Shown in pieces: positions 19,957 through 40,450 of a stretch of DNA of 64,000 bases. A model generated the notes under the pieces. That model worked only from the letters and a program-made list of their open reading frames with translations. It ran no database searches and had not been told where the DNA came from. The position numbers and the translations under genes were made by a program. Source of the DNA: Candidatus Poribacteria bacterium. GTDB taxonomy: Bacteria > Poribacteria > WGA-4E > JAJDTR01. The stretch spans positions 3,904,001-3,968,000 of the forward strand of contig CBDCTK010000002.1 in assembly GCA_965222225.1 (NCBI GenBank). The letters are read 5' to 3'. The number at the start of each line of letters is the position of its first letter. The first letter of the stretch is position 1.

Positions 19957-20010
19957 ATCAAACGAGTGGATAGCGAGTGCGATAGCTAATCCCGCGCGAT
20001 AGAAGATTCC
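19957..20010 (+). mobile_element. Micro-element plus an extra right end
   Basis: ATCAAACGAGTGGATAGCGAGTGCGATAGCTAATCCC-GCGCGATAGAAGATTCC. Confidence 0.85.
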
Positions 20011-21701: not shown

Positions 21702-21993
21702 TAACCCAAATTGCCACCCCTCTCGTAGGTCGGGATCAAGCGAGCAATCAAGCGACTGGATAAGGAGCGCGATAGAGTTCCCGACAGGTCGGTTGTGTCT
21801 CGCGTAGATGGTCCAAATTGATGCAGCCGCCTAGCTCTCGCTTTGTGATGTTTTCGATTGGGACGTAATCCAAGTGTCGCCCCTCTGGGGCTTTAGCGTG
21901 TGGCTAATCCACGTTTCTATACACCTGTCACCCCGCTGGGGCTTTGATGTCCGGATAATACATAAATACTTAGCGAATAAACTACTTAGGTTA
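21702..21993. repeat. MITE family 2-like composite with GCCCC..GGGGC palindromes and a micro-element nest (21735-21782)
   Basis: Left end TAACCCAAATTGCCAC; internal content similar to 42429-42721. Confidence 0.6.
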
Positions 21994-30656: not shown

Positions 30657-31562
30657 ATGTACACAATCCTCGCCATCCTTCTGACCTCCATCTGCTCATT
30701 AGGGCATTCGGTAGATGTACCACCGAGTGAGGCCCAACCTACAGAAAAACAGTTGCTCTATGCCGAGCAACTCTTCGACGCCCGTACCTACAGTCCCTCC
30801 ATTCTTGAGTACAAGCGTTTCCTTTTTTACCAACCACATACCGAAATGGCGGATTTTGCCCGCTATCGCATTGTCCAAGCGCACTACTACCAAGGTAACC
30901 GCGGATACTCCCGGCAACTTTTCGGGGAATTCATGGAAACCTTTCCCGAATCTCCGCTGTATCACCACGCCCAGCTAATGCTCGGAAAAACTCACCTGGA
31001 CGACCAAGAATACGCCACGGCTCGATCTACTTTCTTTCGGATTCTGCAAGCAAATGGAGATGAACGTTTGTTGGTACAAGCCCAATACCTGCGCGGATGG
31101 TGCTATGTACACGATCGAAACTGGTTTAAGGCGATAGCAGAATTCCGCAACGTCCATCAACTGCGCGGGGAGAATCGTCAGGCTGGAACTTTAGACGCCC
31201 GTTTGGAACAAACCGCTACCAAACTTGCCGACACAACCCTCGCCAATACACCGTTGCCGTTAAAGTCGCCGAAACTTGCCCAACTGTTGTCCACGGTTGT
31301 CCCCGGGAGCGGGCAAATCTACGCCGGCAAGACCCGCAACGGTCTTATCTCTTTAGGAATCAATGCCGCATTTTTTTACCTGTTAACGGATTCGGTTGTC
31401 GATAAGCGTTACGTTGATGCGGTGGGAATCTTTCTGGTGGGTTCCCGGTTCTATTCGGGAAATCGCCACAATGCGAAGAAGTGGGCGATGGAGCATAACC
31501 GAGATCTTGAGACGGGCTTGATTGAGCGATTAAAAAATATCGAGCGTGAAATCATTGAATAG
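30657..31562 (+). CDS. TPR (BamD-like) protein with a C-terminal membrane segment
   Basis: Signal peptide, TPR helices, LSTVVPGSGQIYAG. Confidence 0.75.
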   Translation: MYTILAILLTSICSLGHSVDVPPSEAQPTEKQLLYAEQLFDARTYSPSILEYKRFLFYQPHTEMADFARYRIVQAHYYQGNRGYSRQLFGEFMETFPESPLYHHAQLMLGKTHLDDQEYATARSTFFRILQANGDERLLVQAQYLRGWCYVHDRNWFKAIAEFRNVHQLRGENRQAGTLDARLEQTATKLADTTLANTPLPLKSPKLAQLLSTVVPGSGQIYAGKTRNGLISLGINAAFFYLLTDSVVDKRYVDAVGIFLVGSRFYSGNRHNAKKWAMEHNRDLETGLIERLKNIEREIIE

Positions 31563-31604
31563 CGCGATAATTGTTAGGAATTACGCAGTTCGGTTGTAGT
31601 AGCG

Positions 31605-31651
31605 ATCAAGGAAGATCAAGCGAATGTATATAGTGAATGCGATAGATGTCT
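31605..31651 (+). mobile_element. Micro-element nest; continues at 32452-32483 after the IS1 insertion
   Basis: GTAGTAGCG-ATCAAGGAAG-ATCAAGCGAATGTATATAGTGAATGCGATAGATGTCT. Confidence 0.75.
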
Positions 31652-32451
31652 GAGAGTGTTTACACAAAGATAGATAAGGCAATCTGCTGATACTGACGGA
31701 AGACCTCTTGGTCGGTCAAAGCAGTCCATAACTTCATGGCATTGTCCACCATCTCAAGTTTCTTGGATACTATTTTGGTGCGGCGTGTGAATCGTCCAAG
31801 ATGATGGCGTGTATTGCTGTTATCACGTTCGACTGTTGCTGTCCCTGATTTCCCGATGTGATGACGCTCCGCAGGAAGTACCTTGGCAAACGCTTCCCAA
31901 TTGCCAGTGTAATACTGGCAATCACTTAAGTGTTTCACTTTGTCGAATAGCCGTCTGAAGGTATGAGCATCACGACCACCGATAACCCAGGCAACGGTTT
32001 TGCCTGTTTCACGAGAAACTGCTTTGTGAATCCATCTTTTGTTTTTTTTGACCCGATAAAATGCCACATCTCATCAAATTCCAATTCACGGGTGTTGATT
32101 GGAATCTCAGGCTCCGACAACAGGGCTGCTTCCTTTGCAAGCCATTTTTGAACAGTACTTGGCGATACATTAAACAAGTTGGCAATAGTGCCATAAGATG
32201 CTTTTGCAAGGGAGTAAAGAATTACTGCAAAAGCACGCTTGATGGTGGTTTGAGGGTTGGTTCTCTCGTCTCCCTCAACGAAATTATAACCGCACGTTTT
32301 ACAACGGTATCGCTGTTTGGAACGAACGAATCCGTTTTTCGTGACTTCCGAACTATGACAGTTCTTACAGTTTGACATAATGTCTCCTTCCTGACCTTTC
32401 TGGTTAGTTAGAAGAATTATATCATAAATCTATCTATATGGCAATACTCTC
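31652..32451 (-). mobile_element. IS1-family insertion sequence, 800 bp
   Basis: Imperfect TIRs GAGAGTGTTTAC / GAGAGTATTGCC; 8-bp direct repeat AGATGTCT at 31644-31651 and 32452-32459. Confidence 0.92.
31660..32378 (-). CDS. IS1-family transposase InsAB (programmed -1 frameshift)
   Basis: InsA zinc ribbon CKNC...YRCKTC plus HTH; ELEFDEMWHFI; A8C slippery run at ~32041-32049; InsB VERDNSNTRHHLGRFTRRT. Confidence 0.9.
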
Positions 32452-32573
32452 AGATGTCTTATAGCGACTCCAATAGAGAACCCTTCATTGTGAGTCTTCT
32501 GTAGGAGCGAGTTTTACTCGCGACTGGGAGATTAATTCTACAGGATTCCAATCCGTTTCATCTGCGTAATCCG

Positions 32574-32750
32574 ATCAACTGAGCGATCAAGCGACTGGAT
32601 AAGGATCAAACGAGTGGATAGCGAGTGATCAACTGACTGGATAAGGAAGGCGATAGTGAATCCTGATAGCTAATCCCGCGCGATAGAGTTCCTATAGCGA
32701 TGCGATAGCTAATCCCATAGTGAGTGCGATAGAAATCCCATAGAGATCTC
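32574..32750 (+). mobile_element. Four-deep nested micro-element array
   Basis: Left ends at 32574, 32586, 32605, 32628; six right ends. Confidence 0.88.
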
Positions 32751-32812
32751 TCATCAAATCGCCGATTCACTCCTTCTAGCCACTCTTCACTAGCCACTGG
32801 CCACTGCTTTTA

Positions 32813-35452
32813 TCAGAATTGATTCGCCACAAACACCAAATCAAACACATTAATGACCCCATCCCCATTCACGTCCCCCTTCAAACTATCCGTCCCGAAC
32901 CTCTGTGCCACCAGCGTCAAATCCAAAATATTCACCACCCCATCCCCGTACACATCCGCTGGGTTCTTCGGCTTCACCCGCAAATACATCTCCCCGTCAA
33001 GATTTGGTAACGCGTGCTGCGTGTTCACCCATCCGCTGGCGACACCCTGCACCTCCTCCGGCAACGTGTGACCTGTGGCGCCCCGCTGTGATTGTACACC
33101 GCCCAACCATTCGTGAATTCGCGAATGTAAAGCCCTTCTGTCTCTTGGTACAACTGACGTTTCGGACCGACGGGACGCCCAAGATCCGCGCCCCAGAAAT
33201 CGTACCAGTAATGGTGATGACCTCCGCCAGTTTGGAATAATACGTAACCGTCGGAGTGTGTGAGACTCAGCGTGGTAAACGTTCGCATCCAGCGGAGGTT
33301 CGTTGGACTATCAGGTGGTTCTGTAGGGACGCTCCAGCCCTCAAGACTGTTAATGTGCGGTTCTCTCAAGTTAGTTTCTAACCAGAACAGAGAACTTTCT
33401 ATTTCAGCGAGCAGCGCATCCAAATGATTTGCAGGCGCCTCACTCGGCACTAATGTTTCCATAAAGCTGCCGTTGAGATACTTACCGGTCTTGGGGATTT
33501 TGCGACGATTGGTGTTTCCAATGATGAGGAAGTTAGGCCTCGTTTCAGCGCGGATGCGTTCCAGTATGTTTATTTTCGCTTCGATTTCAGTTTCGTATCC
33601 AACATATTCGGTGCGCGGATTGCGGGTAACTAAAAGAGGTGAATTGTCGTTCCACCAGTCAATCATGATGCCATCGAACAAACCACATTTGGAGACGGCT
33701 ACGGCTTGGGCGACCATTCGATCCTGAAAGCCGGGGAGTGTAAAATTAATAAATGCGTCGCCTTCCCCAGCGCCAACCAGGTTGCCGGAGGCGTCGCGCA
33801 GCCAATACGGCCAGTCGGGGGGAAATTCATGAGGCGGTTCGGCGCGAAATGCAAGCTGTACAAGAAAGACCATATTGGGGTTGTGGGCGAGAAATGCGTC
33901 GCGATTTTCTATAGCCTAGCTAGGACCGTAGGGGGTAACCATTTGGATAGTGTCCGACGTTTCGCGGAAGTATGTCTCAAACCGCGGAACGCTAAACCAC
34001 AAATCGTGAGTTGCGAGGTTTTCAATATCTGATAATTCAGGTCGGTTCAAGGTGCGAATCCAACCTGGGCCGCCCCATGCAGCGAACAGTGATGGGAACG
34101 TTCTATTCTCCAATCGAGGTTGCAGTGGCACGGGCGGCAGGTCACAGGTCTGGTCGTAAAAGTAATGGGTAAGCGGGAGGTCGTCCAGCGGGCTGTGGTC
34201 TACAATTTGGTTCTGGTGGATTGCCAAGTGTTCGAGTCTTGTTAGTCCGGCGAGAGGTCGGACGTCGGAAATACGATTGCCGTGCACTTCCAGGTATTCT
34301 AACTGAGTCAACGCGGCGAGAGCGTTGATATCATGAATGTCATTGTATTCGAGATTGAGCCTTTGAAGTTTCGATAGGCGTGCTAGGGGGCGATGTTGAT
34401 AATCTCGCAGTCGGCTGCTTTAAGTGTGCTTAAATTTGTTAGATGCCCTATCGGTGTGATGTCGGAAAATGAATTGATGGATATGTTGAGCCATGTGAGA
34501 TTGATGGCGAATTCTAAACCGGTGAGATCTGTTATCTGACTATTTGCTGCAGCCAACCGTGTTAATTGCCGCATAAATGCGCGATTGACAAGGACGCCAT
34601 GGGGAGCTTGAGAGTTTCTCGGATAGCGGCTCTCAGGTTGGGGTCGGGGATATCGACGACCGGACTGTTCGCGTCGAATATGAGGTTGTTTTGAGTGTCA
34701 AGATATTCTAAATTTGTGAGATTTTCAAGTGGAGTAACATCCGTAATATCGTTATTGCCCAGCAGTAGTTTCGTTAACGCCGTAAGGTTGACGAGCGGGC
34801 TAACATCAACAATGCGGTTGTCCTTAACTTCTAACCATTCCAATTCAGTCAAATTCGCCAGTGGACTGACATCGGTAATCTGGTTTGAGTGCAATCGCAA
34901 CTTCTTTAGTTGACTAAAATTCGCCAGTGGTTTGATGTCTGTAATTGCGTTTCGTTGGAGATAAAGCCCGGTCAGTGCTGTTAGGTTTGCCAATGGACTG
35001 ATGTCGGAAATACGGCAATCCTGCGCAGCCAAGCCTCTCAATTTTGTAAGATTCGCCAGCGGACTAATGTCGGAGATTGGAGTCACTTGGATAAATAGTT
35101 CCTCCAGTGTCGTGAGTCCTGCTATCGGCGTAAGTTCAGTTATCGGGTTGCTCGGTATGTGAAGCCAAGTAAGGCTTACGGCGAATTCCAAACCGGTGAG
35201 GTCTGTTATCCCTCGGTTGGCGGCGTCTAAGCGTTGCAATCGCCTCATAAATGCAGTCGTAACGGGTGCGTCAGGACGGAGATTCAGCGCTTCTCGCACC
35301 GCGGCGCGCAGATTCGGGTCGGGCATGTGGACCGGATCTTCTATCGCATTCGCTATCTGCTCGCTTGATGGCTGGGCGTAAGTATCGGCGCAGAGTGCCG
35401 TCAATGCCAGTGCGATTATCGCGAATATAGTATAGGTCTTTCGTTTCTGCAT
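32813..35452 (-). pseudogene. LRR + putative glycoside-hydrolase-like (GHL15-like) + dockerin secreted protein, disrupted
   Basis: ORF pieces 34562-35512, 34383-34574, 33916-34311, 33025-33873 and 32813-33106 are colinear; frameshifts near 34602, 34388, 33068 and an in-frame TAG at 33916. The GHL15 call is from motif resemblance only. Confidence 0.8.
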
Positions 35453-40281: not shown

Positions 40282-40450
40282 ATCAACCGAGCGGATAGCG
40301 AGGGCGATAGAGATCCCTCAAGCGACTGGATAACGATCAACTGAGTGGTTAACGAAGGATCAAAGGAGCGGATAGCGACTGCGATAGCCAATCCCATAGA
40401 AGATCCCGTGCGATACAGTTCCCTTCAACCGAGTGAATAAATCAAGGGAA
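40282..40450 (+). mobile_element. Micro-element array: tandem copy, three-deep nest and partial left ends
   Basis: Left ends at 40282, 40318, 40336, 40359, 40425. Confidence 0.88.

What the first reader, a model, noticed from the sequence alone, without database searches (positions are those of the whole stretch)
32574..32750. Four-deep nesting: the element inserts into itself
Seen: the array parses as ATCAACTGAGCG[ATCAAGCGACTGGATAAGG[ATCAAACGAGTGGATAGCGAGTG[ATCAACTGACTGGATAAGGAAGGCGATAGTGAATCCT]GATAGCTAATCCC]GCGCGATAGAGTTCCT]ATAGCGA.... Removing each inner copy and restoring one base regenerates variants that stand intact elsewhere: layer 3 equals 19957-19993, and layer 2 equals 21747-21782 except for its last base. 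The outermost layer is ambiguous. Inference: the arrays grow by successive insertion and record the order in which variants were active.
Basis: seen in the sequence. Interest (0 to 1): 0.8.

Follow-up and report, generated by a model that had tools for sequence, protein, structure and literature searches.

The report
Self-nesting 37-base mobile hairpin repeat
The array is a real stack of copies of a tiny (36-37 base) non-coding mobile DNA element of a sponge-symbiont bacterium that inserts into copies of itself, but the stacking order mostly reflects where the element can insert, not a clean history of which variant was active when.

Summary
Observation confirmed. Window 32574-32750 holds three securely nested copies of a 36-37-nt element (ATCAA-v1-GA-v2-G-RATA-v3-GA-v4-G-CGATAG-tail), inside a damaged outer copy and followed by two orphan right-hand pieces.

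Genome-wide, a parser that ignores the variable bases finds 1523 elements in 1139 arrays. Maximum nest depth is 1 in 835 arrays, 2 in 241, 3 in 57 and 4 in 6. Halves separated by an insert pair in 70.7% of cells, against 50.5 ± 2.0% when shuffled.

- Insertion is almost always just 3' of a G, and T at -2 is avoided.
- The next target base is usually replaced by the element's last pyrimidine.
- 22 filled/empty pairs among near-identical paralogous sites show mobility.
- Outer layers carry more mutations than inner ones.
- The ATCAA strand lies on the negative-GC-skew strand in 69% of arrays.
- No reverse transcriptase or cognate transposase was found.

The "order of variant activity" reading is only weakly supported. 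Cross-validated prediction of which variant is inner reaches 62%, against 50% for the null. 28 of 65 variant pairs occur in both orders, and how often a variant is a host depends on its own -2 bases.

The element was found only in Poribacteria. This scan noted the same unit before on other Poribacteria genomes (e1-1213256, e1-1444823). The closest published analogue is Elhai's small dispersed repeats.

The parts
32574..32585 (+). Left part (head: ATCAA v1=CT GA v2=GC G) of the outermost, ambiguous layer 1
   Evidence: Its v2 pairs with the v3 of 32694-32716, but its v1 does not pair with that piece's v4.
32586..32604 (+). Left part of layer 2, interrupted after the G of its right-arm GA (model position 19)
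   Evidence: Together with 32678-32693 and one restored A it equals 21747-21782 except for the last base.
32605..32627 (+). Left part of layer 3 with its whole hairpin, interrupted after the G that precedes CGATAG (model position 23)
   Evidence: Together with 32665-32677 and one restored C it equals 19957-19993.
32628..32664 (+). Layer 4: complete, uninterrupted 37-nt element (v1/v4 CT/AG, v2/v3 CT/AG)
   Evidence: Parser score 23.0, all four pairs Watson-Crick.
32665..32677 (+). Right part of layer 3 (GATAG + tail)
32678..32693 (+). Right part of layer 2 (v4 GC, G, CGATAG, tail)
32694..32716 (+). Right arm plus CGATAG plus tail, assigned by the parser to layer 1. It is one base short in this genome.
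   Evidence: Two of four runs carry one extra C behind 32700, which restores the length of this arm but not its pairing with the head at 32574.
32717..32739 (+). Orphan right half of a further element (ATA v3=GT GA v4=GT G CGATAG tail), with no matching head upstream
   Evidence: Deletions between short direct repeats that remove one half of a host are seen at other loci.
32740..32750 (+). Orphan tail fragment (ATAG + tail-like letters)
19957..19993 (+). Intact solitary copy identical to layer 3
21747..21782 (+). Intact copy identical to layer 2 except for the last base. It is preceded by an orphan 12-nt head at 21735-21746.
31615..31651 (+). Another element copy whose tail was hit by an 800-bp IS1-family insertion (31652-32451; 8-bp target duplication at 31644-31651 and 32452-32459)
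40317..40423 (+). Second nest in the window, three layers deep
   Evidence: The window holds 34 parsed elements, 27 on + and 7 on -.

Best explanation
**What it is (shown).** The array is a stack of copies of a non-coding, non-autonomous mobile element of 36-37 nt. The model is ATCAA, v1, GA, v2, G, RATA, v3, GA, v4, G, CGATAG, then a 7-8-nt tail ending in TCC plus a pyrimidine. Pairs v1/v4 and v2/v3 (2 bp each) covary. The invariant GA/GA and the G...A that close the loop are placed where sheared G-A pairs could form; that part is inferred.

**Insertion rule (shown).**
- New copies are added whole, immediately 3' of a G, with C or G preferred and T avoided at -2.
- The next target base is normally replaced by the element's terminal pyrimidine. 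At one hot spot a second base is lost in about half of the events.
- The element itself offers four or five such G sites (model positions 12, 17, 19, 23, 25), so copies land inside copies and nests build up from the outside in.
- The same rule places copies in GTAG-tagged REP hairpins and other hairpin repeats.

**Likely mechanism (inferred).**
- The unit recognised is the folded single ATCAA strand, because G:T outnumbers A:C about 4 to 1 at the covarying pairs.
- Insertion is coupled to replication. The ATCAA strand ends up on the negative-GC-skew strand (by the usual convention the nascent lagging strand) in 69% of arrays, already so in the youngest copies.
- The 5' joint is exact and the 3' joint is ragged. 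This fits a reaction that starts at a 3'-G end and finishes imprecisely.

**The agent is not identified.** My estimates are:
- about 0.45 that a trans-acting protein reads the invariant blocks on single-stranded DNA (an HUH/Y1-type enzyme or an unknown one);
- about 0.2 that it is template switching by host polymerases without a dedicated enzyme;
- about 0.05 that it involves reverse transcription.

The confidence given (0.8) is for the core claim: a mobile mini-element that nests by insertion under the stated target rule. It is not for any one agent.
For: **Family and structure**
- 530 exact cores with 172 combinations of variable bases. Pairing is 91.4% against 60.1 ± 1.5% when shuffled.
- 506 G:T against 114 A:C among 4553 pair cells.
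- With RNA parameters the ATCAA strand folds better than its complement in 545 of 624 unique cores.

**Nesting**
- 1523 elements in 1139 arrays, up to four deep.
- Pairs separated by an insert are complementary in 70.7% of cells against 50.5% shuffled.
- Replicated on 80 loci of other Poribacteria genomes: 76.1% against 52.5%.

**Target rule**
- G at -1 in 94% of the 530 exact cores and in 83% of the 1139 top-level arrays, where -2 is C or G in 86%.
- 339 of 384 self-insertions fall at five positions, four of them after an invariant G of the model.
- Strong effect of the -2 base.

**One-base replacement**
- Position 12: 17 of 19 events with a landmark.
- Position 19: 26 of 27.
- Position 23: 34 of 73 lose one base and 38 of 73 lose two.

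**Mobility**
- 22 unique filled/empty pairs in paralogous DNA, flanks up to 99.1% identical.
- Several different variants occupy the same REP site.
- Outer layers are more mutated than inner ones.

**Strand bias**
- 697 of 1016 arrays, odds ratio 0.21, p = 7e-33, while crude genes follow the skew in only 55.5%.
- 68% in copies with no mismatch.
- Orientation relative to flanking genes is near neutral: 377 co-directional against 320 anti-directional.

**Not an artefact:** identical contigs in four runs of four studies.
Against: - No empty allele was seen at this locus. The only joint that skips layer 4 has 19-24 matching letters on its shorter side and so comes from other copies.
- Filled/empty pairs could in principle be precise deletions.
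- About 29% of separated pair cells do not pair, so some brackets of my parse are wrong or the hosts have decayed.
- Nearest-neighbour folding gives no stable hairpin: as DNA -0.9 to -2.5 kcal/mol with z about 0. The covarying hairpin has mean energy +1.5 kcal/mol with DNA parameters and -1.4 with RNA parameters.
- No mobilising gene was found.
  - Y1_Tnp genes occur in 34 of 41 relatives, including 20 of the 26 in which the pattern was not found.
  - The three Y1 genes of this genome whose flanks I read are flanked by other repeats.
- The sign of the strand bias is the opposite of what IS200/IS605 elements show for their active strand (passages of PMC5027513).
- GC skew changes sign many times along this assembly and is only a proxy for replication direction.
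- There is no guide-like covariation between target and element (mutual information at most 0.06 bit).
Confidence: 0.8

Rival explanations
1. The element is a REP-like repeat moved by one of the genome's own Y1/HUH (RAYT or IS200/IS605-type) transposases acting in trans on single-stranded DNA (peel and paste).
For: - Y1_Tnp genes are in all 10 genomes of the window's genus and all 4 of the second element-bearing genus.
- Insertion is 3' of a short target without duplication.
- There is a strand bias relative to replication.
- Invariant unpaired blocks around a small hairpin resemble a protein recognition site.
- One Y1 gene has element copies on both sides.
Against: - Y1 genes are also in 20 of the 26 relatives in which the pattern was not found.
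- The three Y1 genes whose flanks I read have other cognate flanking repeats, and element copies there sit inside those repeats. A fourth lies among a further GTAG repeat. The fifth was not examined.
- There is no GTAG tag and only one hairpin, not two subterminal ones.
- Target bases are lost rather than joined precisely.
- The better-folding strand lies on the opposite strand to that expected for an IS608-like active strand.
Confidence: 0.25
2. No dedicated enzyme is involved. A nascent lagging-strand 3' end ending in (G)SG slips onto the single-stranded complement of another copy, copies it, is released as the new strand folds, and returns to its own template.
For: - Exact 5' joint with a G-S-G preference, and a ragged 3' joint that loses 0-3 target bases.
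- The ATCAA strand lies on the negative-skew strand, already so in young copies.
- Targets are often hairpins, where polymerases pause.
- No reverse transcriptase and no cognate transposase were found.
Against: - It does not explain why unpaired blocks (ATCAA, RATA, CGATAG) stay invariant across two families of genomes.
- It does not explain why related genera with REPs lack the element.
- It does not explain about 1500 copies.
- No microhomology is evident at the 3' return point.
Confidence: 0.2
3. The arrays are not insertions but products of slippage, tandem duplication or recombination between neighbouring units.
For: - Deletions between short direct repeats inside arrays do occur and leave orphan halves.
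- This locus has two orphan right halves.
Against: - Last-in-first-out pairing of halves holds.
- Inner copies are complete while hosts are split at a few fixed sites.
- Hosts are restored exactly by removing the inner copy.
- Filled/empty pairs occur in non-element DNA.
Confidence: 0.04
4. The unit is a host-serving signal (terminator, RNA stabiliser, protein binding site or small RNA) kept by selection, and nesting is a side effect.
For: - About 92% of arrays are intergenic by crude gene calls.
- Covariation shows that a structure matters.
- RNA parameters favour the ATCAA strand.
Against: - Orientation relative to flanking genes is near neutral: 377 co-directional, 320 anti-directional, 207 in divergent and 140 in convergent gaps.
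- Copies interrupt one another and other repeats.
- Copy number differs widely between related genomes and the element was not found in 26 of the 41 relatives searched.
- No Rfam match.
Confidence: 0.08
5. The element is copied through RNA by a reverse transcriptase (target-primed reverse transcription at a nick after G).
For: - Exact start and ragged end of the insert.
- G:U-type wobbles, and better folding with RNA parameters.
Against: - RVT_1 was found in only 13 of 41 relatives. Among element-rich genomes it was found in 3 of 9 other genomes of the genus, weakly in the window's own genome, and in 2 of 4 of the second genus.
- There is no orientation bias relative to transcription.
Confidence: 0.05

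Closest known systems
Small dispersed repeats (SDR1-8) of Nostocaceae cyanobacteria (Elhai et al. 2008, Genome Res 18:1484)
   Same: - Both are very small (tens of bases) dispersed repeats taken to be mobile without coding capacity.
- Insertion is precise at a fixed short site. SDR5 inserts between the third and fourth base of GCGATCGC, that is after GCG (passage in PMC4390886). This element also inserts after (S)G, including GCG^ATAG.
- From recall only: conserved flanks around a variable hairpin kept by compensatory changes, and copies inside copies.
   Different: - SDRs are 21-27 nt and reported only in Nostocaceae (passage in PMC5861425). This unit is 36-37 nt and was found only in Poribacteria records.
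- The 2008 paper is not held, so sequence similarity, nesting and any replacement of a target base could not be compared.
REP / REPIN elements with RAYT transposases (GTAG- and CGTC-tagged palindromes; PMC3733652, PMC3116915)
   Same: - Short, intergenic, hairpin-forming, high copy number.
- Thought to move as single-stranded DNA.
- GTAG REPs coexist in this genome.
   Different: - No GTAG or CGTC tag.
- Not found as the cognate flank of the three Y1 genes whose flanks I read.
- It invades REPs rather than being one.
- It nests in itself in direct orientation.
IS200/IS605 family and its miniature derivatives (single-strand 'peel and paste'; PMC5027513)
   Same: - Insertion 3' of a short target without duplication.
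- Strand asymmetry linked to replication.
- Recognition of folded single strands.
   Different: - One central hairpin instead of two subterminal ones.
- Target bases are lost.
- The sign of the strand bias is opposite for the better-folding strand.
- No autonomous parent was found: 0 split copies with matching halves within 6 kb.
MITEs such as Correia/NEMIS or Nezha, and Rickettsia palindromic elements
   Same: Non-autonomous small repeats that spread within genomes.
   Different: - MITEs have terminal inverted repeats and target duplications, and are usually over 100 bp. This unit has neither.
- RPEs are longer and insert in frame in genes. Here about 8% of arrays overlap crude ORFs.

Membership tests
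REP/REPIN-RAYT | Imperfect palindrome carrying a conserved GTAG (or CGTC) tetranucleotide at one end | tested here: not met
   The conserved blocks are ATCAA at the 5' end and G-CGATAG 3' of the hairpin. There is no GTAG or CGTC at either end.
REP/REPIN-RAYT | A cognate RAYT gene flanked by the repeat | tested here: inconclusive
   The flanks of three of the five Y1_Tnp matches in the genome were read, and they carry other repeats (an AGCCCC-hairpin repeat and a GTAGGAGCG-type REP). Element copies near them sit inside those repeats. A fourth match lies among GTAGGCATAC repeats. The fifth was not examined.
REP/REPIN-RAYT | Replicating unit is an inverted doublet (REPIN) | not tested
   Only noted that 56 of 1139 arrays directly follow a reverse-oriented copy.
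MITE | Terminal inverted repeats | tested here: not met
   The ends are ATCAA... and ...TCC-pyrimidine. No terminal inverted repeat appears in the position profile.
MITE | Target-site duplication | tested here: not met
   Filled/empty pairs and nests show loss of 0-3 target bases, mostly 1-2, and no duplication.
IS200/IS605-type single-strand transposon (miniature form) | Insertion 3' of a specific short sequence, no duplication | tested here: met
   G at -1 in 94% of exact cores and 83% of top-level arrays; C or G at -2 in 86% of top-level arrays.
IS200/IS605-type single-strand transposon (miniature form) | Subterminal hairpins at both ends and seamless joints | tested here: not met
   There is a single central hairpin, and the base after the target G is replaced.
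IS200/IS605-type single-strand transposon (miniature form) | Active strand on the lagging-strand template | tested here: inconclusive
   A strong bias exists (697 of 1016), but the better-folding ATCAA strand lies on the negative-skew strand, the opposite of the IS608 rule. Which strand is active is unknown, and skew is only a proxy.
Small dispersed repeats (Elhai SDR) | 21-27 nt units in Nostocaceae | tested here: not met
Small dispersed repeats (Elhai SDR) | Sequence or structural homology to SDR4-6 | not testable with these tools
   The describing paper is not held, and no SDR sequence came from any call.
Retroelement | Reverse transcriptase present wherever the element is abundant | tested here: not met
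   RVT_1 at E <= 1e-5 in 3 of 9 other genomes of the genus and 2 of 4 of the second element-bearing genus.
Known RNA families (Rfam 15) | Match to a curated covariance model | tested here: not met
   0 matches at E <= 1 in window 31400-33000.

The most novel reading that the evidence does not exclude
The element represents an undescribed way of moving DNA. A folded 36-37-nt single strand would be written into the nascent lagging strand at a 3'-G end and replace the next base, either without any element-encoded or dedicated transposase or with an enzyme class not yet linked to transposition. Variants carrying T at the -2 positions would be 'immune' to invasion by their relatives, so that the family evolves as a structured quasi-species of the smallest known mobile DNA.
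Probability: 0.2. Interest if true: 0.85.

Novelty: new variant of a known kind. Interest (0 to 1): 0.62.

Why it matters
Mobile DNA of a few dozen bases has been known from cyanobacteria since 2008, but its mechanism is unexplained. This family gives an unusually rich record: about 1500 copies per genome, hundreds of self-insertions and many filled/empty pairs.

From that record, concrete and testable rules can be read:
- insertion 3' of G;
- avoidance of T at -2;
- replacement of the next base;
- a replication-linked strand bias;
- a covarying mini-hairpin flanked by invariant blocks.

These rules narrow the search for the agent. They also explain how intergenic DNA of an uncultured sponge symbiont fills with nested repeats. 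Practically, the units break assemblies, because contigs stop inside arrays. They also shape intergenic regions that may be mistaken for regulatory arrays or CRISPR-like repeats.

Tried and rejected
- **Orthologous comparison between species.** The locus is bounded by an IS1 copy and a multi-copy dockerin-domain gene family. The search in the 9 other genomes of the genus returned only paralogous matches at 66-84% identity, so nest depth at an orthologous site could not be compared.
- **Reads.** Read laying gave contigs only. The joint 32627 to 32665 with one C between looks like layer 3 without layer 4, but it has only 19-24 letters on its shorter side and high depth. It comes from other copies and is no evidence of an empty allele.
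- **Autonomous parent.** No orphan head has a matching orphan right half within 6 kb (0 found). Long orphan halves are few and symmetric: 27 5' halves and 21 3' halves. Most 12-nt "orphan heads" are chance matches in genes.
- **Target-guide pairing.** Mutual information between flank and variable positions is at most 0.06 bit.
- **Thermodynamic folding as a test of the hairpin.** It was uninformative for DNA.
- **Survivorship as the cause of the strand bias.** The bias does not grow with copy age: 68% at 0 mismatches, 60.5% at 2 or more.
- **A three-base target duplication (ATC).** It does not fit the filled/empty pairs.
- **Literature.** Elhai 2008 could not be read. Searches combining Poribacteria with repeat terms listed no paper describing these repeats. 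Supplementary files were not consulted.

Full report
**The observation.** The letters at 32574-32750 are as the finding gives them.
- The innermost bracket (32628-32664) is a complete 37-nt unit.
- Removing it and putting back one C turns 32605-32677 into the exact sequence that stands intact at 19957-19993.
- Removing that layer and putting back one A turns 32586-32693 into 21747-21782 except for the final base.
- The outer head (32574-32585) has a right-hand partner (32694-32716) whose v3 pairs with its v2 but whose v4 does not pair with its v1.
- Two more right-hand pieces follow (32717-32739, 32740-32750) and have no heads.

So there are three secure layers inside a damaged outer context. 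Contigs of four public runs from four studies match 32502-32632 and 32637-32763 without a difference. Two of the runs carry one extra C behind 32700, inside the doubtful outer arm. The nest is real DNA and is fixed in those populations.

**The unit.** Around every CGATAG in the genome a conserved 36-37-nt pattern emerges: ATCAA, v1, GA, v2, G, RATA, v3, GA, v4, G, CGATAG, then a 7-8-nt tail that ends in TCC plus a pyrimidine.
- The 12-nt head occurs 1493 times against 76 for its reversed control.
- The 29-nt core pattern occurs 523 times against 0 for its control.
- Among 530 exact cores there are 172 combinations of the variable bases. v1 pairs with v4 and v2 with v3 in 91.4% of cells, against 60.1 ± 1.5% after shuffling.
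- Among 4553 pair cells of uninterrupted copies there are 506 G:T against 114 A:C. The pairing is therefore read on the ATCAA strand.
- The invariant GA/GA and the G...A around the loop lie where sheared G-A pairs could form; this is inference.
- Standard energy models do not predict a stable DNA hairpin. With RNA parameters the ATCAA strand folds better than its complement in 545 of 624 unique cores.
- Rfam has no match.

**Genome-wide parse.** I wrote a nested-alignment parser that scores only the invariant positions, so that the variable bases remain an independent test.
- It finds 1523 elements in 1139 arrays. Maximum nest depth is 1 in 835 arrays, 2 in 241, 3 in 57 and 4 in 6. Together they cover 0.95% of the genome.
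Pair cells whose two sides are separated by an insert are complementary in 352 of 498 cases (70.7%). The mean of 1000 shuffles is 50.5% (sd 2.0, maximum 56.7%), and wrong partners within the same array give 43-54%.
- By site, the figures are 123 of 154 at position 12 and 132 of 183 at position 19.
- The rate is lower than in intact copies (92.4%), so some brackets are wrong or the hosts are decayed.
- The same analysis on 80 loci (639 kb) of other Poribacteria genomes gives 308 elements, nests up to five layers, and 76.1% against 52.5%.

**Where and how copies go in.**
- Of 384 self-insertions, 152 lie after the G that precedes CGATAG (position 23), 94 after the G of the right-arm GA (19), 49 after the G before the loop (12), 25 after GCG (25) and 19 at position 17.
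- The base before the unit is G in 94% of exact cores. In the 1139 top-level arrays it is G in 83%, with C or G at -2 in 86% and G at -3 in 59%.
- Outside the family, favoured sites are GTAG-tagged REP hairpins (GTAG within 16 nt upstream of 329 arrays) and other hairpins. Flanks are complementary across the array in 123 arrays against 36 expected.
- 56 arrays follow the single G of a reverse-oriented copy.
Counting from the tail's TCC to the next host landmark, the number of letters is as in the intact host, but the first letter is now C or T instead of the host's base. This holds at position 12 in 17 of 19 events and at position 19 in 26 of 27. At position 23 it holds in 34 of 73, while 38 of 73 lose one base more.

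**Evidence that these are insertions.**
- Joining the flanks of every element and searching the genome gave 22 unique filled/empty pairs in paralogous DNA, with flanks up to 99.1% identical.
- In all 22 pairs the unit follows the same flank sequence as in the empty site (G in 21, T in one diverged copy). The empty site has 0-3 bases, mostly 1-2, that the filled site lacks.
- Different variants occupy the same REP site.
- Invariant-position mismatches rise with the number of layers an element contains: 4.45% (n=1150), 5.55% (304), 7.75% (63) and 9.8% (6). This is as expected if outer layers are older.

**The "order of variants" inference.** Host and inner roles are not evenly spread over variant classes (chi-square 73.7, 25 d.f.). 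Which class is inner can be predicted with 62% cross-validated accuracy against 50%. Three results weaken the reading:
- 28 of the 65 class pairs with at least two events occur in both orders.
- The link with class homogeneity is modest (rho 0.47, p 0.013) and that with mismatch rate is not significant.
- Host frequency is set by the host's own bases beside the target G. At position 23 the rate is 22% for v4 = CC, 19% for GG, 13% for GC, and 0.6% for CT. At positions 12 and 19 it is 13-15% for AC and 0-0.6% for dinucleotides ending in T.

Variants with T at these places are almost never hosts. The order is therefore largely a matter of target preference, not of time.

**Strand and context.**
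- By crude gene calls, about 92% of arrays are intergenic. Orientation relative to neighbouring genes is near neutral: 377 co-directional, 320 anti-directional, 207 in divergent and 140 in convergent gaps.
- In contrast, the ATCAA strand lies on the strand with negative local GC skew in 697 of 1016 arrays (odds ratio 0.21, p = 7e-33). Crude genes follow the skew in only 55.5%.
- The bias is already 68% in copies without a mismatch and does not grow with divergence, which argues for a bias at insertion.
- By the usual convention this places the folding strand in the nascent lagging strand. That is the opposite of what is reported for the active strand of IS200/IS605 elements (passages of PMC5027513).
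- The skew changes sign many times in this assembly, so this step is an inference that needs an independent map of replication.

**The agent.**
- The core pattern is present in all 10 genomes of the window's genus (330-824 exact copies each), in 4 of 4 of one genus of another family (115-139), twice in a third genus, and in none of the other 26 relatives.
- Y1_Tnp genes are in 34 of 41 relatives and so are not specific. Where I read their flanks, those of this genome carry other repeats.
- RVT_1 is found in only 13 of 41 relatives and is missing from most element-rich genomes.
- No split copy with a large insert that could be an autonomous parent was found.
- No target-guide covariation was found.
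- I therefore hold that the unit is non-autonomous and is read as a folded single strand by a trans-acting factor not yet identified. Polymerase template switching is the main alternative.

**Relation to what is known.**
- The nearest published kind is the small dispersed repeats of Nostocaceae. I could see only passages of citing papers: SDR5 inserts precisely after GCG within GCGATCGC, and SDRs are confined to Nostocaceae. The original paper is not held.
- The unit fails the defining features of REPs (no GTAG tag) and of MITEs (no inverted ends, no duplication).
- It fails part of those of IS200/IS605 derivatives.
- Two searches of the paper library for such repeats in Poribacteria listed nothing.
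- Earlier notes of this scan describe the same 37-base self-nesting unit on other Poribacteria genomes (e1-1213256, e1-1444823) and GTAG REPs in this genome (e1-1517163). My tests agree with them and add the target rule, the one-base replacement, the strand bias and the confounding of nest order.

Noticed in passing
window 31652-32451: An 800-bp IS1-family element (ORFs with DDE_Tnp_IS1 and helix-turn-helix matches) has at least 8 further copies at 93-99% identity in the genome. It sits in the tail of another element copy and has an 8-bp target duplication at 31644-31651 and 32452-32459. Larger insertion sequences therefore also land in these arrays.
   Followed up: partly
G000:C2:3080190-3080970 (outside the window): A Y1_Tnp gene (3080372-3080716, minus strand) is bounded by inverted copies of a different repeat: a GCCCC/GGGGC hairpin followed by CGACAGGT. 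One copy carries the 36-nt element and the other is empty. This repeat family, with many copies upstream of a repeated gene start, looks like the cognate repeat of that transposase.
   Followed up: partly
genome-wide: Variants with T next to the target G at all three main sites (for example the class with v1 AG and v2 AT, which has 19 identical copies) are almost never hosts. They behave as if immune to invasion by their relatives.
   Followed up: partly
genome-wide: Nests of a variant class inside the same class are rarer than expected: 4 observed against about 13 expected from class frequencies. This may be because direct repeats of identical units delete easily.
   Followed up: no
window 32700: Two of four public runs carry one extra C behind this place, so the doubtful outer right arm differs in length between populations.
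   Followed up: no
window 32813-33873 (minus strand): The gene next to the array has a dockerin type I match and belongs to a very large paralogous family, with dozens of matches at 66-87% identity in every genome of the genus.
   Followed up: no
G000:C2 whole contig: GC skew changes sign more than ten times along the 5.6-Mb contig. This suggests many inversions or assembly joins, and element orientation flips with it.
   Followed up: partly
window 40317-40423: A second nest, three layers deep, lies in the same window. The window holds 34 parsed elements, 27 of them on the + strand.
   Followed up: partly
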